Shown one piece after another: positions 32,039 through 62,350 of a stretch of 64,000 nucleotides of DNA. The position numbers were made by a program, and so were the translations under genes. The stretch lies in the sequence record OL631479.1; one strand, given 5' to 3'. Under the pieces are notes generated by a model. The model was not told the DNA's origin. It ran no database searches and was given only the letters and a program-made list of their open reading frames with translations. This stretch comes from Escherichia phage ECML-10. The first letter of the stretch is position 1. Every line of letters starts with the position of its first letter.

Positions 32039-32272
32039 ATGAAAGTTAAATTTCTTACAGATTTAGGGTACCCTTCCTTGGTTGACTGCGTTGGTAAAAT
32101 TGTGGAAGCAAAACGACTATCTGCAAACGATAATGTTGTCATGGTTAAGGGAAAAGATTTACTATCTGCAGGTGCAGAGTCTGGCAGGATCTCTCCTGAC
32201 TATACGTATTACCTGTCTTTAAGTAATCTACCAGAACGAGGCGGCAAAGGCCTTGAAGTTGTGGAGGAGTGA
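32039..32272 (+). CDS. small acidic protein, MK(V/I)K family member
   Basis: SD GGAGG; MKVKFL start, C-terminal LEVVEE shared with paralogs. Confidence 0.5.
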   Translation: MKVKFLTDLGYPSLVDCVGKIVEAKRLSANDNVVMVKGKDLLSAGAESGRISPDYTYYLSLSNLPERGGKGLEVVEE

Positions 32273-35383: not shown

Positions 35384-35665
35384 ATGAAAAAGATTTGCGA
35401 TACAGATGTGGAGTTCAAGGTGTGTAGTAAGGAGACCTATTGGGAAGTGAGACAAAAGGTATATTTGTTTGGACTTATCCCATATTGGTCCAAATTCTAC
35501 TGGGGAGCAGATGAATTAGGGAGATATGCCACCAAAGCTATGGCGCTTATAGGTATAGCTGAATATATTGCTGCTAGGGACAGGGCTGGAAAAACCTGCT
35601 ACTACACTGCTGACGAGATTCGTAACAGTGTTTACGTCCCCCAACCACCTGAAGGAGACCGTTGA
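35384..35665 (+). CDS. hypothetical protein
   Basis: Start moved to ATG 35384 (track start overlapped upstream gene). Confidence 0.45.
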   Translation: MKKICDTDVEFKVCSKETYWEVRQKVYLFGLIPYWSKFYWGADELGRYATKAMALIGIAEYIAARDRAGKTCYYTADEIRNSVYVPQPPEGDR

Positions 35666-35889
35666 TGAAAGTTAAAGTTTTAGATTCAAGCTTCTATATT
35701 GGTCAGGAGCCTTTAGTGGGTAAAGTGTTTACCGCTGTCCATAACGAAGATTATCCTGACCTTTTAAAAATAAAGGGTGCAGATCTTATTGCCGCTGGTG
35801 CATCTCAGGAATGCTTTGACAGTCAGTGGACCTACAACTTTGCCCTAGGTGAGGATGTAGAGATAGTGGAGGACGATCATGAAGGTTAA
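35665..35889 (+). CDS. small acidic protein, MK(V/I)K family member
   Basis: MKVKVLDSSFYIGQ start; C-terminal EDVEIVEDDHEG. Confidence 0.5.
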   Translation: MKVKVLDSSFYIGQEPLVGKVFTAVHNEDYPDLLKIKGADLIAAGASQECFDSQWTYNFALGEDVEIVEDDHEG

Positions 35890-36133
35890 AATTCTTGATT
35901 CTAACGTCTACTTGGGGCAATCCTTCCTGAAAGGAAAGGTCGTACCTGCGGTATACTTTGAAGGGTTGCCGTGGGATGATCCTGTGCGGCAACATCACAG
36001 TTATGTAGGCCACAACGTGGTGTTTATCTTGGGATCAGACCTGATCACCGCTGGTGCACCTGAATATTATTTCGGGGAAGAGTCCTATTATGCCTTTGGG
36101 GTAGGGTCAGATGCAGATATTGTAGAGCTGTGA
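35879..36133 (+). CDS. small acidic protein, MK(V/I)K family member
   Basis: MKVKILDSNVYLGQ start, very similar to preceding gene; C-terminal GSDADIVEL. Confidence 0.5.
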   Translation: MKVKILDSNVYLGQSFLKGKVVPAVYFEGLPWDDPVRQHHSYVGHNVVFILGSDLITAGAPEYYFGEESYYAFGVGSDADIVEL

Positions 36134-36145
36134 TGGGTAACCGTT

Positions 36146-36544
36146 GTGAAAAATAAACTGTTCAAAGTTACAATGAAAATTCGCGGAGCTTGGAGCGTAA
36201 AGCAAGGGCGTATCCCAGAATTTGAGAAAGATTTCTACGTAGTCTCCACCTCGGAGGAGGCTGCATGCTGGCAGGCTGGCTATGCCTATGCAAGAACCTG
36301 GTACGAAGGATACCAGACTGGGGGCTATGACGGAGAAATTGTCAGCAAGGGTGTAGAAGAAATTAATGTGTTGACAAGTGAAAAAGTTTTTGTTATAGTG
36401 CATCCAGATTCCAGAGTGAAGCATTACTGGAATGCCAGAACAAAAACTTGGACACCGTTTGCAGACTCTGCTACACCACTTTTAAACCAAAAAGCTCTTG
36501 ACTCTGCCCCGAGCTATGGGGTTGTTGAAGAAAAGCTAAACTGA
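36146..36544 (+). CDS. hypothetical protein, paralog of 38355..38750
   Basis: Shares HP.S...YW....WTP motif block with 38355..38750. Confidence 0.5.
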   Translation: MKNKLFKVTMKIRGAWSVKQGRIPEFEKDFYVVSTSEEAACWQAGYAYARTWYEGYQTGGYDGEIVSKGVEEINVLTSEKVFVIVHPDSRVKHYWNARTKTWTPFADSATPLLNQKALDSAPSYGVVEEKLN

Positions 36545-36561
36545 AACAGTGAGGTGTCACT

Positions 36562-36852
36562 ATGATGGATTTAATTCTAAATATTGATAACGCAGAAGAA
36601 TTTAAAGACGATGGTGTAACAAGCATGGACAAACCCTGCTCTGCTAAGGTTGACTCAAAATGGACCTACAAGTTTGACGGAGAGATCTTTGCAAATGATG
36701 AGAAGGTTGTAGATGCTGCAGCCATTTTAAACGCTCTAGGGTACGACCCTGTGAATTCTTTGATCAAGGATCCTGTTGAGTTTGCAGAGTATGTTCGAAA
36801 AATGGCAGATCTTGCTGCGGATATTTTAAAAACTATAGACAACAAGCTGTAA
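36562..36852 (+). CDS. hypothetical acidic protein
   Basis: ORF track; SD GAGGTG. Confidence 0.5.
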   Translation: MMDLILNIDNAEEFKDDGVTSMDKPCSAKVDSKWTYKFDGEIFANDEKVVDAAAILNALGYDPVNSLIKDPVEFAEYVRKMADLAADILKTIDNKL

Positions 36853-36934
36853 AAACTGTTGACACAACGCTTCAGATTTAGTATCATTGTTTTCAAAGAG
36901 GGTTTGGTTCCCTCTTCTTTAAAAGGAACACGTT

Positions 36935-37252
36935 ATGCAAATTGAAATCACTGGCAACGTAGAAATCACTGAAGGTATGGTGTCTTTCATTTCCCACAAA
37001 ATGTCTAAGCTGGAGCGTTTGCACCCCTCTGCCAACTATACACGTGTGAGTGTAAAAGTTGAAAATGATCACCAGGAAGTCATGGCGTTCATTTTTGACA
37101 CTTCCGGAAAAGAAGTTATTGCCAAAGCTAAAGGCAGTGACGCTTACGAGGCAACTGACCGTATGGTAGATGTTGCAGCACGTCAGTTGGCTAAATGCGG
37201 TGGAAAGAAAGGTAAAGGGAAGGGCAAAGTAAAGATTGACTTTGGAGAATGA
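36935..37252 (+). CDS. hpf: ribosome hibernation promoting factor (HPF/RaiA/YfiA family)
   Basis: MQIEITGNVEITEG, KLERL, VSVKVEN and GKEVIAKAKGSDAYEATDRMVDVAARQLAK align with E. coli HPF/YfiA (from memory). Confidence 0.7.
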   Translation: MQIEITGNVEITEGMVSFISHKMSKLERLHPSANYTRVSVKVENDHQEVMAFIFDTSGKEVIAKAKGSDAYEATDRMVDVAARQLAKCGGKKGKGKGKVKIDFGE

Positions 37253-37389
37253 GGTGCTACAATGGGCGTGATTAAGAAATTAGTACCAAATGTAGAGATT
37301 GCATGCTTTGAAATTATGTTTGCAATCGCAGTTGTAGTTAATGTGTTAGGTTACGGCTATTAATATCAAATAATTGAGGAGACCTCTAA

Positions 37390-37659
37390 ATGAAAATTAA
37401 ATTATTCAAAACTGAGCTGGCAGACAAAAACTGTGGACTGGTTGAAGGCATGATCGTTGAAGCACAACCAGTGGACTACATGAAGGTAGTTCGTGATGCC
37501 TTGGGTGAAGGCTTTGATCTGATGGAGCCAGCTCTGCGAGAAGATGTTATCGAGATGGCTAAAAAGCACACACCTGAAGGCTTGGTGGTGTTTGTTGCAC
37601 CGGGTAACGGAGAAGAGTTGATTGTAACTCCTGATGTGTATGAGATTGTAGAAGAGTAA
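37390..37659 (+). CDS. small acidic protein, MK(V/I)K family member
   Basis: MKIKLFK start; C-terminal VYEIVEE; SD GAGGAGA. Confidence 0.5.
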   Translation: MKIKLFKTELADKNCGLVEGMIVEAQPVDYMKVVRDALGEGFDLMEPALREDVIEMAKKHTPEGLVVFVAPGNGEELIVTPDVYEIVEE

Positions 37660-37754
37660 TCCTGCTTGGATTAGCATACTTCTCTCAATAAAAAGAAAAG
37701 TTTGTAATTATTTGTGGGAAAGGAATCCCCATCTCTTGCCAGAGGTGATACTAT

Positions 37755-38018
37755 ATGATTGTTTATTTTAAAACTTCAGGTGGATACCCTGATTCTCAAA
37801 GCTTGATCGGAAAAACGTGCACAGCATACTCACCTCTTGATGAGGAGGTAAGCGATATTCTACGAGATATGTATCGGATTGATCCCCAAGAAGCTTTTGA
37901 TCAAAACCTTGTATTTGTCAAGGGCTCAGACATGAAGTCTTTGGGAGCATTCCCTGAAGCAGATGATGATGCCGTTTATTCGTTCATGACTCCTTTTGAA
38001 GCTATGGTTGTTGGGTGA
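37755..38018 (+). CDS. small acidic protein
   Basis: ORF track; SD AGAGGTGA. Confidence 0.5.
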   Translation: MIVYFKTSGGYPDSQSLIGKTCTAYSPLDEEVSDILRDMYRIDPQEAFDQNLVFVKGSDMKSLGAFPEADDDAVYSFMTPFEAMVVG

Positions 38019-38022
38019 GAAT

Positions 38023-38355
38023 ATGAAAGTACGATTTATTGGTGAAACAATTCCTGTGCATCTCCGGTCGCCTGAAGATTCTGCAGATCTTGCATCTCAG
38101 AAGGCGAGAGGTTATGATAAGAAAGTAATCTCAAACGATGTAGAACTTGAGGCTACTAGTTTACCTGACCCTGCTGCATTCTTTAATCATTATGGATACT
38201 ATTTCAGCAATCTGATGAATATCGGTGAGCTTGTGTTTATTAGTGGTGGAGAAATTGTTAGCAAGCTTGGCGGCGATCCGGATGTCTTTCATGAAACCTG
38301 TCCTTTTGCATTTGTGGTAGGTTCAGATGTGGAAGTTATTGAGGAGGTGCGGTAA
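38023..38355 (+). CDS. small acidic protein, MK(V/I)K family member
   Basis: Start moved to ATG 38023 (MKVRFIG); C-terminal GSDVEVIEEV. Confidence 0.5.
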   Translation: MKVRFIGETIPVHLRSPEDSADLASQKARGYDKKVISNDVELEATSLPDPAAFFNHYGYYFSNLMNIGELVFISGGEIVSKLGGDPDVFHETCPFAFVVGSDVEVIEEVR

Positions 38356-38750
38356 TGGTAAGACTATACCGTGTTGAGTATAGCTCAGATACTGTATACA
38401 ACGTAAGAAGCAAAGATCGCAGCGACAGAGTGCAAGAAATGTATGTTCTTGCCGACAGTCCGCTATCTGCAGCGTTCAAGGCAGGGGCTCTTGCATCTCG
38501 TTGGAAATTTGAAGGTGGATCTTTCTATGAAGAAACCCTTGAAGATTCTGTTGTTATTTCTTCTGTAGAGGTTTCAGATGACTACGAAGGGAAAAAGTTC
38601 GTAATGCGGCACCCACACAGCAACATTGCGTACTACTGGGATGTTCTGAACAACGAGTGGACCCCAGATCTTCAGAAGGCTACTGTGCTAACACCGTTTT
38701 TGGCAGATAAGTTTCCACCAGAAGGTAATTTATCCGCACTGTTTCAGTAA
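38355..38750 (+). CDS. hypothetical protein, paralog of 36146..36544
   Basis: FVMRHPHSNIAYYWDVLNNEWTP matches VFVIVHPDSRVKHYWNARTKTWTP. Confidence 0.5.
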   Translation: MVRLYRVEYSSDTVYNVRSKDRSDRVQEMYVLADSPLSAAFKAGALASRWKFEGGSFYEETLEDSVVISSVEVSDDYEGKKFVMRHPHSNIAYYWDVLNNEWTPDLQKATVLTPFLADKFPPEGNLSALFQ

Positions 38751-38826
38751 TTTTCTTGCACACAGGTGTTGACAACGCCAACCCTGTGTGAAATAATACC
38801 TTCATCTTAACAAGACAGGAGACCGA

Positions 38827-39087
38827 TTGATGAAGATTAAATTGAAAAACCTTGAAACGGCAGAGATTCAGGACGGTGTAGATTTCCGTTCTAAAGATGG
38901 TGACATCTTAGAGGTAAATCTTCCAACCTACACGCTGATTAAAGGTTTTGGCAACGTTCCGGAAGAGGATATTCCAGAAATTCTTATGATGTTGATTCTT
39001 GACGGAACTGTGTTTGTAGGTGAAGGTGAGAACGCTATTGCAATCCCAAGCCATTTTTATGAAGTAGTCGACGAAGAGGTGCTGTAA
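38827..39087 (+). CDS. small acidic protein, MK(V/I)K family member
   Basis: MMKIKLKN start; C-terminal FYEVVDEEVL. Confidence 0.5.
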   Translation: MMKIKLKNLETAEIQDGVDFRSKDGDILEVNLPTYTLIKGFGNVPEEDIPEILMMLILDGTVFVGEGENAIAIPSHFYEVVDEEVL

Positions 39088-39438
39088 ATGAAAGTAGAAA
39101 TTACCGGTTTTGATGTGAATGCGGTTCCGGAAGATATTTTATCTAAATTGCCGGAAGGTTTTGGTAACGGTGTTGTGGTGGATGCTGTTCCTCCTACCAA
39201 AGACATTCTGCTGCAGTATGGTGTAGCAGAGGAAGATGTTGATAAAGTTCTTACAATGATGGCAATCGATCGTGTTGTCGTTGTTAAAGGTCTCGATAAT
39301 TTTGAGAGTGATCCTCTGATTATTCGTGGAGATGACTACAAAATCATCGATAATGAAGGCCAAGAGTTCTATGAGCCTTGTGCAGAAGATATTCTTAACT
39401 TATTACTGGAAGCAGGCACCGAAGAGGAGGACGAATAA
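39088..39438 (+). CDS. small acidic protein, MK(V/I)K family member
   Basis: MKVEITGFD start; acidic tail. Confidence 0.5.
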   Translation: MKVEITGFDVNAVPEDILSKLPEGFGNGVVVDAVPPTKDILLQYGVAEEDVDKVLTMMAIDRVVVVKGLDNFESDPLIIRGDDYKIIDNEGQEFYEPCAEDILNLLLEAGTEEEDE

Positions 39439-39767
39439 TGAAGATTGACCCGTTACTGAAGGCTCGTGCAGAAAAAGCGTACACCATTAAGCTGACCAAC
39501 CTGGTTCCTACTTGTCATCCAGATGTAGGTTGGCCCGAAGGTTTGGTGGAGGGAACTGTAACAGCTGCATACCTTCCTAACATCAAATACCTCATGGAGA
39601 TCTTAGAGATGGATGAGGAAACTGCAGAACAGTTCCAGTTGGATATGAAACAGAGTGGGACTCTGGTTATTCACGGGTGGTATAATACTAAAGATGCAGA
39701 AGACCCTCTGGTAACTTCTAATCTGGCATATGAAATCTTAGGGCCTTTGAACCTGGAGGAAGACTAA
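39438..39767 (+). CDS. small acidic protein
   Basis: ORF track; ATGA overlap; MKIDPLL start. Confidence 0.5.
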   Translation: MKIDPLLKARAEKAYTIKLTNLVPTCHPDVGWPEGLVEGTVTAAYLPNIKYLMEILEMDEETAEQFQLDMKQSGTLVIHGWYNTKDAEDPLVTSNLAYEILGPLNLEED

Positions 39768-40054
39768 TGAAAGATCTGGTTAAGATTAAGATTAAAGATA
39801 CCAATGGGGAGCTCAGCCATTTTGGAATTAATGATGGTGACGAGCTGATCGCACACCTGCCTACCAAGGAGGTTGTAAGCAAAGCAGTTGCCGGAGAAGA
39901 AGCTGCAATGCAGGCTGCAGGTGTGGATGAAAACTATGTAGCTATGTGCATGTGCCGAGATCAGGTTGTTCTGTATAAAGCGTATCGACCAAACGGAGCC
40001 ACGGAGTGGCTTGTATTCCGACCCGAAGGATATGAAATCTTAGAGGCACTATGA
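39767..40054 (+). CDS. small acidic protein
   Basis: ORF track; MKDLVKIKIK start. Confidence 0.5.
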   Translation: MKDLVKIKIKDTNGELSHFGINDGDELIAHLPTKEVVSKAVAGEEAAMQAAGVDENYVAMCMCRDQVVLYKAYRPNGATEWLVFRPEGYEILEAL

Positions 40055-61393: not shown

Positions 61394-61772
61394 TTGCTGC
61401 CTCTCCTGCATTCATCAGATCTGCCATAGCGTCACCAACGAAGAGAACAACCACATCGTTGACAGCGTCAGTATCATCTTTGTTGACGTTGCTGAATTTA
61501 GGACACACAGCAATGATCATATAGACACCGTTACCCACCTGAACTGTCCGTGTGGTGCACATCATGGCGGTATTTGTGCCTTCTTTGAAGGCGAAGCCTT
61601 GAAGACGCTCCTCTAAAGTGTTACCGGTAGATTTCAGAAGCGCCAGCTCGTCCAAGGCATAGATGATATCTCCGGAAGTTAGTGTTGCCTTGCCATCAGA
61701 CACCATAATCACTCCATCAGCACCGTCAAGCTTAGAGGCTTCAAAGATATCAATATCCCAAATATTTTTCAT
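61383..61772 (-). CDS. hypothetical protein
   Basis: Start moved to ATG 61772 (SD GAGGAAG); ATGA overlap with upstream stop. Confidence 0.5.
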   Translation of the reverse strand: MKNIWDIDIFEASKLDGADGVIMVSDGKATLTSGDIIYALDELALLKSTGNTLEERLQGFAFKEGTNTAMMCTTRTVQVGNGVYMIIAVCPKFSNVNKDDTDAVNDVVVLFVGDAMADLMNAGEAANED

Positions 61773-62032
61773 CACGCTTCCTCGTCGTCTAAGGAGTTGA
61801 AGATTTCACCGAAGTATTCTAAGACTTCTAGCTCCCGTGTGGTGCAGAAAACACAGTCACCGTTGTCATCCTCGATAACGGCCTCTTTACCCAGCACATC
61901 TACTTCAAGTTTATCGTTCAACAGGACAGCCCCTGTGTAAACTTTGTCGGCTGTGCAGTCCCGAAAAGCAGAGTCCTTCTCCAGATAGTCTGGCTTAACC
62001 TTGGCTTTAATTCGTTGATATTGTTTGGTCAT
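61772..62032 (-). CDS. small Cys-containing protein, paralog of 62096..62350
   Basis: Start moved to ATG 62032 (SD AAAGGGGA); AFRDCT...DDNGDCVFCTTRELEV matches AFKDCT...DDEGDSVWCTVNEVVFV. Confidence 0.5.
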   Translation of the reverse strand: MTKQYQRIKAKVKPDYLEKDSAFRDCTADKVYTGAVLLNDKLEVDVLGKEAVIEDDNGDCVFCTTRELEVLEYFGEIFNSLDDEEA

Positions 62033-62095
62033 TACTGTGGTCCCCTTTCGTTTGGATAGGGCCATTATAATAGGTCCTATCACTGTTGTCAAGTA

Positions 62096-62350
62096 TTAAT
62101 GTTCAGGTTTTACAAAAACTACCTCGTTAACAGTGCACCAGACAGAGTCCCCTTCATCATCTTTAAAGGTAAGGCACTGTGCTGAGTTTTCCAGCTCATC
62201 AATCTCTTCTTGTGATAAAGGAGCCCCTTCTTCCAGAAGGGCTTTTACCAAAGGGTTCTCACAAAACTCTGCTTCATAAATTGCACCGACTGTGCAATCT
62301 TTAAAAGCTCGGTCATTTGCAACGCATTCTGGCTTCAAAGTAATTTTCAT
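62096..62350 (-). CDS. small Cys-containing protein, paralog of 61772..62032
   Basis: SD GAGGAGA before ATG 62350. Confidence 0.55.
   Translation of the reverse strand: MKITLKPECVANDRAFKDCTVGAIYEAEFCENPLVKALLEEGAPLSQEEIDELENSAQCLTFKDDEGDSVWCTVNEVVFVKPEH

What the first reader, a model, noticed from the sequence alone, without database searches (positions are those of the whole stretch)
35665..38750. Ancient segmental duplication of a three-gene unit
The unit small acidic protein, small acidic protein, then a 130-aa protein occurs twice (35665-36544 and 37755-38750). The third genes are clear paralogs (VFVIVHPDSRVKHYWNARTKTWTP vs FVMRHPHSNIAYYWDVLNNEWTP; WQAGYAYARTWYEG vs FKAGALASRWKFEG), and the second genes share the C-terminal GSD(A/V)(D/E)(I/V) motif. 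Nucleotide identity has decayed, so the duplication is old and the copies have probably been retained for function.
Basis: seen in the sequence. Interest (0 to 1): 0.5.

Follow-up and report, generated by a model that had tools for sequence, protein, structure and literature searches.

The report
Duplicated small-gene block in rV5-like phage
An E. coli rV5-like phage carries two old, diverged copies of a block of small genes of unknown function, and these copies belong to larger repeated gene families in a dispensable, fast-changing part of the genome, which is a real but fairly ordinary feature of large phages.

Summary
The window is a Vequintavirus (rV5-like E. coli myophage, 98.6% nt identity to JES2013).

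**What holds**
- The two 130-aa proteins (B1 36146-36544, B2 38355-38750) are paralogs: 27.5% identity, BLASTP 6e-10, shuffle z=17, both in phrog_7379.
- The four small acidic proteins belong to one family, "A". An extra copy (A0) lies at 32039-32272, and there are homologs in lambdoid E. coli prophages.
- A1 models confidently (pLDDT 92) as an SH3-like beta-barrel.
- The divergence is old (third codon positions are saturated). All six genes are under purifying selection (dN/dS 0.02-0.29).

**What does not hold**
- A strict three-gene duplication is not supported. A1 and A2 are much closer to each other than to A1'/A2', and the tree weakly groups A1' with A2'.
- In relatives, A1-A2 occurs without B1, and a B1-type gene occurs without any neighbouring A.
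- Only unit 2 behaves as a discrete block. It sits inside a second paralog family, "C" (five copies).

Unit 1 is deleted in the viable phage Bas59.

**Best reading:** an A-B block duplication within a multi-copy accessory region, probably serving host interaction. The function is inferred, not shown. Modest interest.

The parts
35665..35889 (+). A1: 74-aa acidic protein (pI 4.2), A family / phrog_5009; predicted SH3-like five-stranded beta-barrel
35879..36133 (+). A2: 84-aa acidic A-family protein, tandem paralog of A1, with a 14-16 aa insertion between strands 2 and 3
   Evidence: 41% identity to A1, E=1.2e-14; phrog_5009 E=3e-32; alignments; dN/dS 0.07-0.18
36146..36544 (+). B1: 132-aa protein (GTG start), B family / phrog_7379
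   Evidence: phrog_7379 E=8e-74; B1-B2 BLASTP E=6e-10; the conserved N-terminal strand supports the GTG start; dN/dS 0.03-0.06; disrupted or deleted in L004 and in Bas59
37755..38018 (+). A1': 87-aa acidic, divergent A-family protein with an insertion of about 22 aa at the same loop
   Evidence: A-family HMM built without it gives E=1.5e-5; phrog_5009 E=1.2e-4; the Shigella phage CM1 87-aa protein (the size of A1'; identity to the A1' ortholog inferred, not checked) matches the A1 model at TM 0.80; dN/dS 0.07-0.27
38023..38355 (+). A2': 110-aa acidic, divergent A-family protein; the C-terminal half aligns best with A2
   Evidence: hhalign A2-A2' E=4e-7; shuffle z=9.1; HMM iteration 2 E=4.6e-6; dN/dS 0.02-0.29
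38355..38750 (+). B2: 131-aa B-family protein / phrog_7379
   Evidence: phrog_7379 E=2.4e-66; ortholog in L006 at 40% identity; dN/dS 0.04-0.28
32039..32272 (+). A0: fifth A-family copy (77 aa), 3.4 kb upstream, not followed by a B-like gene; closest relatives are in lambdoid prophages
   Evidence: phrog_5009 E=8.5e-36; 31% identity to A1, E=1.4e-6; 50.6% identity to mEp044 gp55; the downstream gene g32269 is not B-like
37390..37659 (+). C1: first member of a second paralogous family of small acidic proteins (context; unit 2 lies between C1 and C2)
   Evidence: hhalign C37390-C38830 E=1.6e-7 and C37390-C39767 E=2e-6; alignment
38830..40054 (+). C2-C5: four tandem C-family genes (38830-39087, 39088-39438, 39438-39767, 39767-40054)
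   Evidence: hhalign links between E=2.7e-6 and 1.9e-4; family HMM and alignment
36859..36887 (+). Sigma-70-like promoter (TTGACA-17-TATCAT) in the gap before the HPF gene (36935-37252), downstream of unit 1
   Evidence: HPF matches Pfam PF02482 at 1.4e-12
38769..38797 (+). Sigma-70-like promoter (TTGACA-17-AATAAT with extended -10 TG) in the gap directly after unit 2

Best explanation
The two units are diverged copies of an old block duplication. They lie inside the accessory arm of a Vequintavirus, on the + strand among replication and nucleotide-metabolism genes, with sigma-70-type promoters.

The duplicated block most likely held one A gene (A2-like) plus one B gene. The A gene was then duplicated in tandem separately in each copy, giving today's A-A-B order twice.

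This is one episode in a wider expansion of small acidic protein families in a stretch of about 9 kb: A has 5 copies, C has 5, and B has 2.

The A proteins are about 75-aa SH3-like beta-barrels. They tolerate insertions in one loop and are strongly acidic. B is a 130-aa protein found only in this phage group.

All copies are kept by purifying selection within the genus. Yet they diverge quickly between lineages, are gained and lost as blocks, and are not needed for growth on laboratory E. coli.

My inference is that they are accessory host-interaction proteins. They probably work as protein-binding inhibitors or decoys for host factors, for example basic nucleic-acid-binding or defence proteins, with the paralogs aimed at different targets or variants.

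Shown: the paralogy, its age, the selection, the A fold, the variable presence among relatives, and the dispensability of unit 1. Inferred: the order of duplication events and the function.
For: **Identity and context**
- 98.6% nt identity to phage JES2013. The region is a run of small hypothetical genes plus HPF.

**Paralogy**
-.

**A2 is the best match of A2' and is level with A0 for A1'**
- hhalign: A2-A2' E=4e-7 and A2-A1' E=2e-6, against A1-A2' E=7e-6 and A1-A1' E=1.7e-5; A0-A1' is 3e-6.
- In the shuffle test A0-A1' (z=6.4) exceeds A2-A1' (z=5.5).
- A2, A1' and A2' share an insertion at the same loop and a (L/V)VF(V/I)xG(S)D motif.
- The tree groups A1' with A2' at 61%.

**Block behaviour**
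- Unit 2 lies between C1 and C2 in the window and in L006. In L008, C1 is followed directly by C2-like genes.
- Chance adjacency: 74 of 2,000,000 permutations.

**Age**
- B1 versus L008 B is 38.6% identical. B2 versus L006 B is 40%. B1-type versus B2-type is 27%.

**Selection**
- dN/dS 0.02-0.29 for all six genes.

**Fold**
-.

**Acidity**
-.

**Accessory character**
- B1 is absent from L006 and disrupted in L004. Truncated forms are P0002 and P0003.
- Unit 1 plus about 12 further genes are deleted in the viable phage Bas59.
- An A1/A2 hybrid gene (P0011) shows unequal crossover.
- The A homologs in lambdoid prophages lie in a variable array of small genes between the Q antiterminator and the holin.
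- The B family is confined to this phage group across a scan of 1.84 billion representative proteins.
Against: - There is no functional evidence of any kind. There are no Pfam, NCBIfam or PDB sequence relatives, and no paper mentions these genes.
- The order of duplication events rests on 70 aligned columns and weak bootstrap support (52-61%). Grouping of A1' with A2' could be long-branch attraction.
- In relatives, an unrelated gene (X96) lies where the A2-B1 junction is in the window. So the contiguity of unit 1 may be secondary, the result of a deletion.
- A-B partnership is not obligatory: L006 has A1-A2 without B1, and L008 has B1 without A.
- Early expression is inferred from position and promoter-like motifs only. 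The promoter scan as a whole is not enriched over shuffles (31 found against 25.8 +/- 5.5).
- The B structure model failed (pLDDT 48).
Confidence: 0.5

Rival explanations
1. Strict three-gene segmental duplication. An ancestral A-A-B block was copied once. Unit 2 then diverged faster, or A1 and A2 were later homogenised by gene conversion, which hid the one-to-one relationships.
For: - Same order and orientation of three paralogous genes. Chance adjacency is 3.7e-5.
- A2' matches A2 slightly better than A1: z 9.1 against 7.9, and hhalign E=4e-7 against 7e-6.
- Recombination between A1 and A2 does happen (hybrid gene P0011).
Against: - A1-A2 are 41% identical, while the A-to-A' pairs give weak alignments of z=5-9.
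- The A1 and A2 orthologs in L006 cluster by gene, not by genome, so there has been no recent conversion.
- Present-day rates of unit 2 genes are not higher than that of A2. Window-to-L006 identities are A1' 60% and A2' 54%, against A2 44%.
- A1' shows no preference for A1.
- The tree groups A1' with A2'.
Confidence: 0.2
2. There was no block duplication. The A-A-B order arose twice by independent events in a region crowded with A copies, through tandem duplications and deletions of intervening genes. The two B genes come either from a single-gene duplication or from recombination between diverged phage lineages, each of which carried its own version of one ancestral B gene.
For: - The three lineages show a reciprocal pattern. 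L008 has only a B1-type gene, L006 has only a B2-type gene, and the window has both.
- An X96 homolog lies between A2 and the B1 position in relatives. This suggests that A2-B1 adjacency in the window came from a deletion.
- The region is visibly mosaic: the naswa A2 allele, the deletions in L004 and Bas59, and the chimera P0005.
Against: - B1-type and B2-type genes occupy different, conserved positions: upstream of C1 in the window and L008, and downstream of C1 in the window and L006. They are therefore not alleles of one locus.
- Convergent A-A-B order is improbable under random order.
- Unit 2 is flanked by intergenic gaps of 95 and 79 nt and is present or absent as a whole.
Confidence: 0.25
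3. The similarity is a chance or compositional artefact of short acidic ORFs, and there is no real paralogy.
For: The A1'-A2' direct comparison is weak (z=2.8). The A-to-C comparison is not significant.
Against: - B1-B2 z=17 and A2-A2' z=9.1 against composition-preserving shuffles.
- Independent PHROG profiles place the genes in the same families.
- Profile-profile E-values reach 1e-16.
Confidence: 0.01

Closest known systems
PHROG families phrog_7379 (B) and phrog_5009 (A), both 'unknown function'
   Same: B1 and B2 match phrog_7379 over its full length (E=8e-74 and 2e-66). A1, A2 and A0 match phrog_5009 over its full length. So the paralogy is already implicit in that clustering.
   Different: A1' matches phrog_5009 only weakly (E=1.2e-4). 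A2' and A1' have their own PHROGs (13661 and 13920). No PHROG gives a function, and none records the block arrangement.
SH3-like small beta-barrel fold (PsaE, Spt5/NusG KOW domains, retroviral integrase C-terminal domain, SH3 domains)
   Different: Z stays below 5 and sequence identity is 4-25%, so this is fold resemblance and not demonstrated homology. KOW and integrase C-terminal domains are basic nucleic-acid binders, whereas the A proteins are strongly acidic (net charge -6 to -10).
Phage accessory regions holding clusters of variable, non-essential anti-defence and host-modifying genes (concept as in Silas et al., bioRxiv 10.1101/2023.04.06.535777)
   Same: The genes are small, fast-diverging and lineage-variable. 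They are gained, lost and fused by recombination. Unit 1 is dispensable on K-12 (Bas59). Homologs lie in a variable array of small genes in lambdoid prophages.
   Different: No member has a tested counter-defence or toxicity phenotype. That study does not mention rV5-like phages.
Multigene families and tandem paralog expansions in large viruses (from my own knowledge: hyperplastic regions of T4-like phages, poxvirus and ASFV multigene families)
   Same: Several families (A with 5 copies, C with 5, B with 2) are expanded side by side. Unequal-crossover products are observed (P0011).
   Different: The copies here are old and strongly diverged. This is not a recent copy-number 'accordion', and no selective agent is known.

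Membership tests
B family (phrog_7379) | Full-length match to the family profile | tested here: met
   B1 E=7.9e-74 (profile 1-131 of 131); B2 E=2.4e-66 (1-131 of 131)
A family (phrog_5009) | Full-length match to the family profile | tested here: met
   A1 E=6e-39, A2 E=3e-32, A0 E=8.5e-36
A family (phrog_5009) | Unit 2 genes A1' and A2' also match the profile | tested here: inconclusive
   A1' E=1.2e-4, covering profile positions 1-58 only. A2' has no PHROG 5009 hit. In-house HMMs and hhalign do place both in the family, and the shuffle z values are 5-9.
Segmental duplication of a three-gene unit | Each gene has a paralog at the same rank, order and strand in the other unit | tested here: met
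   A-A-B twice on the + strand; chance 74 of 2,000,000
Segmental duplication of a three-gene unit | One-to-one (positionally matched) closest relationships: A1 with A1', A2 with A2' | tested here: not met
   A1' is closest to A0 and A2, not A1. The tree gives (A1',A2') 61% and (A1,A2) 52%. Only A2' shows a slight preference for A2.
Segmental duplication of a three-gene unit | Within-unit paralogs (A1 versus A2) are at least as diverged as between-unit pairs | tested here: not met
   A1-A2 are 41% identical at E=1e-14, whereas the between-unit A pairs give only E=0.007 or worse by BLASTP
Segmental duplication of a three-gene unit | Residual nucleotide, intergenic or flanking-repeat similarity | tested here: not met
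   No meaningful blastn match between the units; third codon positions 31-42% identical. This is expected if the event is old, so it is uninformative rather than contrary.
Segmental duplication of a three-gene unit | Units are inherited as units in related genomes | tested here: inconclusive
   Unit 2 is intact in the window and L006 and wholly absent in L008. Unit 1 is broken up: L006 has A1-A2 and no B1, and L008 has a B1-type gene and no A.
SH3-like beta-barrel fold | Five-stranded barrel topology with significant structural match to known members | tested here: inconclusive
Phage accessory / anti-defence genes | Variable presence among close relatives, and dispensable for lytic growth | tested here: met
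   B1 is lost or disrupted in L006, L004 and Bas59. A1, A2 and B1 are deleted in the viable phage Bas59. Unit 2 is absent in L008.
Phage accessory / anti-defence genes | Demonstrated inhibition of a host defence system or another host target | not testable with these tools
   No experimental data found; no anti-defence profile library is available here
DNA-mimic type inhibitors (Ocr, ArdA, Arn as analogies) | Strongly acidic surface | tested here: met
   A proteins have pI 4.05-4.66 and net charge -6 to -10. This is a composition-level feature only.
DNA-mimic type inhibitors (Ocr, ArdA, Arn as analogies) | Charge pattern that mimics the DNA backbone; binding to a DNA-binding enzyme | not tested
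   No surface analysis or complex prediction was possible

The most novel reading that the evidence does not exclude
The A, C and similar small acidic proteins of this arm, at least 10-12 genes in about 10 kb, would be one superfamily of SH3-like barrels. They would diversify mainly through insertions in a single loop, giving the phage a repertoire of variable binders that each neutralise a different host defence or host factor. B would act as a partner or effector, and the A-B block would be the unit that gets copied. The shared layout fits this idea: an MK(V/I)K(L/F) first strand, then G-x-V-x-A, then an insertion often starting with LP or P(T/D), then a VVF strand, then a YE(I/V)VE-like end. 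It is not statistically supported; the best A-to-C hhalign E-value is 0.006 among 190 comparisons.
Probability: 0.15. Interest if true: 0.55.

Novelty: new member of a known kind. Interest (0 to 1): 0.22.

Why it matters
rV5-like phages are among the most commonly isolated E. coli phages and are used for typing, biocontrol and therapy. Yet roughly a tenth of the genome is this run of unannotated small genes.

Three results turn part of that run into a defined target for experiments:
- A large share of these genes reduces to three paralogous families. One has a confident SH3-like fold and relatives in lambdoid prophages.
- The families turn over as blocks.
- A natural deletion mutant (Bas59) already exists.

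If the families prove to be host-takeover or counter-defence factors, the paralogs would show how a lytic phage diversifies one small scaffold against several targets.

As it stands, the finding is a correct but unsurprising observation of old paralogy in a phage accessory region.

Tried and rejected
- Pfam and NCBIfam scans of all A, B and C proteins and of ten neighbouring genes gave nothing except HPF.
- PDB sequence searches with the A and B profiles gave only noise, E>0.01.
- AlphaFold2 of B1 with a three-sequence alignment gave pLDDT 48, so no fold search was attempted on it.
- An HMMER scan of 1.84 billion representatives with the B profile found only the B1 and B2 orthologs of two further lineages, plus fragments. 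The hits to large repeat proteins (P0052-P0056) are judged spurious because they are multi-stretch low-complexity repeats.
- The word-based homolog search for B1 found only near-identical proteins and fragments.
- tblastn of B1 and B2 against 50,697 phage records found the Vequintavirus genus only.
- I tested whether the gene after A0 (g32269), or the genes that replace A or B in relatives (X96, X120), are cryptic B homologs. They are not; hhalign E is 0.02 or worse.
- I tested whether the A and C families are related. This is not significant.
- I tested whether the lambdoid prophage arrays share further genes with this region. Only the single A homolog is shared.
- The afdb50 fold library was unavailable.
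- Literature searches on rV5, Vequintavirus and accessory genes found no mention of these genes or of their paralogy.
- There are no tRNAs in the window.


Full report
**What the window is**

The 5.2-kb stretch around the finding is 98.6% identical to Escherichia phage JES2013. It matches about 120 rV5-like phage records at 80-99% identity, nearly all above 90%. The window is therefore a Vequintavirus (Vequintavirinae). In the RefSeq annotation, the region from about 31 kb to 42 kb is a + strand run of small 'hypothetical protein' genes. The only named genes nearby are a ClpP-like protease, a methyltransferase and a ribosome hibernation factor. The rV5 genome paper places this arm in one large transcriptional unit that also holds the nucleotide-metabolism and replication genes. 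That paper reports sigma-70-type promoters spread across the genome and says nothing about paralogs (PMC3606486).

**Checking the observation**

- Unit 1: A1 35665-35889, A2 35879-36133, B1 36146-36544.
- Unit 2: A1' 37755-38018, A2' 38023-38355, B2 38355-38750.

The quoted peptides are present. The four small proteins are acidic (pI 4.05-4.66).

B1 and B2 are clear paralogs.
- 27.5% identity over 120 residues, BLASTP E=6e-10 with composition adjustment.
- z=17 against 2000 composition-preserving shuffles.
- hhalign E=2e-16.
- Both are full-length members of phrog_7379.

The small proteins form one family.
- A1 and A2 are 41% identical (E=1e-14).
- An HMM seeded only from A1, A2, a third copy and two prophage homologs finds A1' at E=1.5e-5 and A2' at E=0.011 among 419 window ORFs. 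After A1' is added, A2' reaches E=4.6e-6.
- Direct shuffle tests give A2-A2' z=9.1, A1-A2' z=7.9, A2-A1' z=5.5 and A1-A1' z=5.2.

Nucleotide similarity between the units is gone. Third codon positions are 31-42% identical.

1. There is a fifth A copy, A0, at 32039-32272. It is a strong phrog_5009 member and 31% identical to A1. It is not followed by a B-like gene.
2. A0 is closer to a 75-aa protein of lambdoid E. coli phages and prophages than to its own in-genome paralogs: 43-51% identity to mEp044 gp55 and to a MagusPhagus protein. In those phages the gene sits in a variable array of 13-25 small genes without Pfam matches, between the Q antiterminator and the holin.
3. The small acidic genes around unit 2 form a second paralogous family, C: 37390, 38830, 39088, 39438 and 39767. 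hhalign links among them run from E=1.6e-7 to 1.9e-4, and the alignment is convincing. Unit 2 therefore sits inside the C array, between C1 and C2.
4. The GxD(V/A)x(I/V)VE C-terminus is family-wide. It is not a signature of the 'second genes'.

**Comparative genomics**

The B family is extremely narrow.
- tblastn against 50,697 phage records finds it only in the Vequintavirus genus. Nearly every record has two places, and each copy is at least 95% conserved.
- A full HMMER scan of 1.84 billion representative proteins with a B1+B2 profile finds only two further full-length members, plus fragments.

Those two members led to two more distant lineages from metagenomes and assemblies.

L005-L007 (shown here as L006) share 40-74% amino-acid identity with the window in this arm. 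The gene order is:
- g35088, g35384, A1 (68%), A2 (44%), an unrelated 96-aa gene (X96), g36562, HPF, C1, A1' (60%), A2' (54%), B2 (40%), an extra P22_Y8K6-family gene, then C2-C5.
- There is no B1.

L008 is more distant. It has:
- A0.
- An X96 homolog, a 120-aa gene, and a B1-type gene (38.6% to B1, 27% to B2).
- Then C1 followed directly by C2-, C3- and C5-like genes.
- No A1, A2, A1', A2', B2 or HPF.

Three things follow.
- The B1/B2 split predates the separation of these lineages.
- Unit 2 is present or absent as a whole.
- Unit 1 is not a co-inherited unit. A1-A2 occurs without B1, B1 occurs without A genes, and an unrelated gene occupies the A2/B1 junction in relatives. Their contiguity in the window may therefore be secondary.

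**Does a three-gene duplication fit?**

The order and orientation argue for a block event. In random permutations of about 45 genes with five A and two B, both B genes are preceded by two A genes in 74 of 2,000,000 trials.

A single copy of an A-A-B block also predicts that A1 pairs with A1', that A2 pairs with A2', and that A1-A2 are at least as diverged as those pairs. The data say otherwise.
- A1-A2 are by far the closest pair.
- A1' is no closer to A1 than to A0 or A2.
- A2 is the best profile match of A2', and it ties with A0 as the best match of A1' (hhalign 2e-6 vs 3e-6).
- A2, A1' and A2' share an insertion at the same loop and a VF(V/I)xGSD motif.
- A neighbour-joining tree on 70 core columns gives (A1',A2') 61%, (A1,A2) 52% and (A0, prophage) 97%.
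- Orthologs cluster by gene across lineages, so recent gene conversion is not the explanation.

The simplest history is duplication of an A2-like + B pair, followed by separate tandem duplication of A in each copy. Support is weak because the sequences are short. The strict three-gene model and independent assembly both remain possible.

**Selection and dispensability**

Against seven Vequintavirus genomes, Nei-Gojobori dN/dS is:
- 0.03-0.06 for B1 (intact copies)
- 0.04-0.28 for B2
- 0.07-0.24 for A1
- 0.07-0.18 for A2
- 0.07-0.27 for A1'
- 0.02-0.29 for A2'

The highest values come from near-identical pairs with only one to three synonymous differences. All six are real genes under purifying selection.

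They are nevertheless accessory.
- B1 is frameshifted and fused to g36562 by a 220-bp deletion in L004.
- N-terminally truncated forms of B1 occur (P0002, P0003).
- A 70-aa A1/A2 hybrid produced by unequal crossover exists (P0011).
- The BASEL phage Bas59 (EduardKellenberger) carries a natural deletion of roughly window 32.7-36.46 kb. It removes A1, A2, most of B1 and about a dozen other genes, yet the phage grows on E. coli K-12.

**Structure and function**

With a 34-sequence alignment, A1 models with high confidence (pLDDT 91.7, pTM 0.80). The model is a five-stranded barrel with one short helix.
- In the viral structure library it matches many uncharacterised 60-100 aa phage proteins at TM 0.7-0.87. 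One of them is an 87-aa protein of Shigella phage CM1, the size of A1' (TM 0.80); I did not confirm that it is the A1' ortholog.
- The insertions of A2, A1' and A2' fall in the loop between strands 2 and 3.
- The B model failed (pLDDT 48).
- No Pfam, NCBIfam or PDB sequence relatives exist.

Sigma-70-like promoters with 11 of 12 consensus matches lie in the intergenic gaps at 36859-36887 (before HPF) and at 38769-38797 (just after unit 2).

From the position, acidity, small size, lineage-specific turnover, dispensability and the prophage 'moron-like' context, I infer accessory host-interaction proteins. They are most likely protein-binding inhibitors or decoys, and the paralogs are specialised for different targets. 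This is inference only. No experiment or paper bears on it.

**Verdict**

- Right: there are old paralogous blocks retained by selection.
- Too simple: the genes belong to larger families, the one-to-one three-gene correspondence fails, and one of the two 'units' is not stable in relatives.

Old paralog expansions in the accessory regions of large phages are a known kind of feature, and the paralogy is already implicit in the PHROG clustering. I rate this a new member of a known kind, of modest interest. The most useful product is a defined set of families (A, B, C), a confident fold for A, and a natural deletion mutant for testing function.

Noticed in passing
window 37390-37659 and 38830-40054: A second family of five paralogous small acidic genes (C1-C5) surrounds unit 2. 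Its layout resembles the A family: an N-terminal MKIKL strand, a loop insertion starting at LP or P(T), and a C-terminal YEIVEE. The A-to-C sequence link is not significant.
   Followed up: partly
L014 (MZ501061, Bas59 EduardKellenberger) versus window ~32.7-36.46 kb: A natural deletion of about 3.8 kb fuses the N-terminus of g32269 to the last ~28 residues of B1. It removes about 14 genes, including A1 and A2. The phage is viable on K-12, so it is a ready-made mutant.
   Followed up: partly
L004 10001-10324 (P0004); also P0011 and P0005: Recombinant genes occur. P0004 is the B1 C-terminus fused to the g36562 C-terminus through a 220-bp deletion. P0011 is an A1/A2 hybrid joined at the shared DLIxAGA motif. 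P0005 is a chimera of the prophage-type A N-terminus with the A1 C-terminus, seen on a 1.6-kb metagenome contig that could be an assembly artefact.
   Followed up: partly
window 61772-62092 and 62096-62350, - strand: Another tandem pair of small paralogous genes (30% identity, E=6e-9). They have a similar 'MKI.LKP ... insertion ... DD.GD.V.CT' layout.
   Followed up: partly
window 36935-37252: A phage-encoded ribosome hibernation factor (Pfam Ribosomal_S30AE, E=1.4e-12) has its own strong sigma-70-like promoter. It lies between the two units. It is present in the window and in L006 but absent from the same region of L008.
   Followed up: partly
GenBank MG0656xx records: Eighteen records labelled 'Campylobacter phage' with host C. 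jejuni are 95-98% identical to E. coli rV5-like phages across this region. They are probably mislabelled or contaminant assemblies.
   Followed up: no
L008 13532-14644 and 1657-2556: The distant relative carries a TnpB / OrfB_IS605 (Cas12f-like) gene and a T5orf172/MUG113 gene inside the same accessory arm.
   Followed up: no
L012 (phage naswa), ortholog of A2: The A2 allele is only 80% identical at the protein level, with dS 0.87, while flanking genes are 93-100% identical. This indicates local mosaic replacement of a single small gene.
   Followed up: no
L002, L003, L015-L017 (lambdoid phages and prophages): The A homolog lies in a hypervariable array of 13-25 small genes without Pfam matches, between the Q antiterminator and the holin. 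The number of genes differs between otherwise similar prophages.
   Followed up: partly
L006 12881-13177: The sister lineage has an extra gene of the Pfam Phage_P22_Y8K6 family inserted directly after B2, where the window has only a promoter-bearing gap.
   Followed up: no
window ~42000: GC skew changes sign near 42 kb. This coincides with the end of the + strand gene run, which is a strand switch between transcription units.
   Followed up: no
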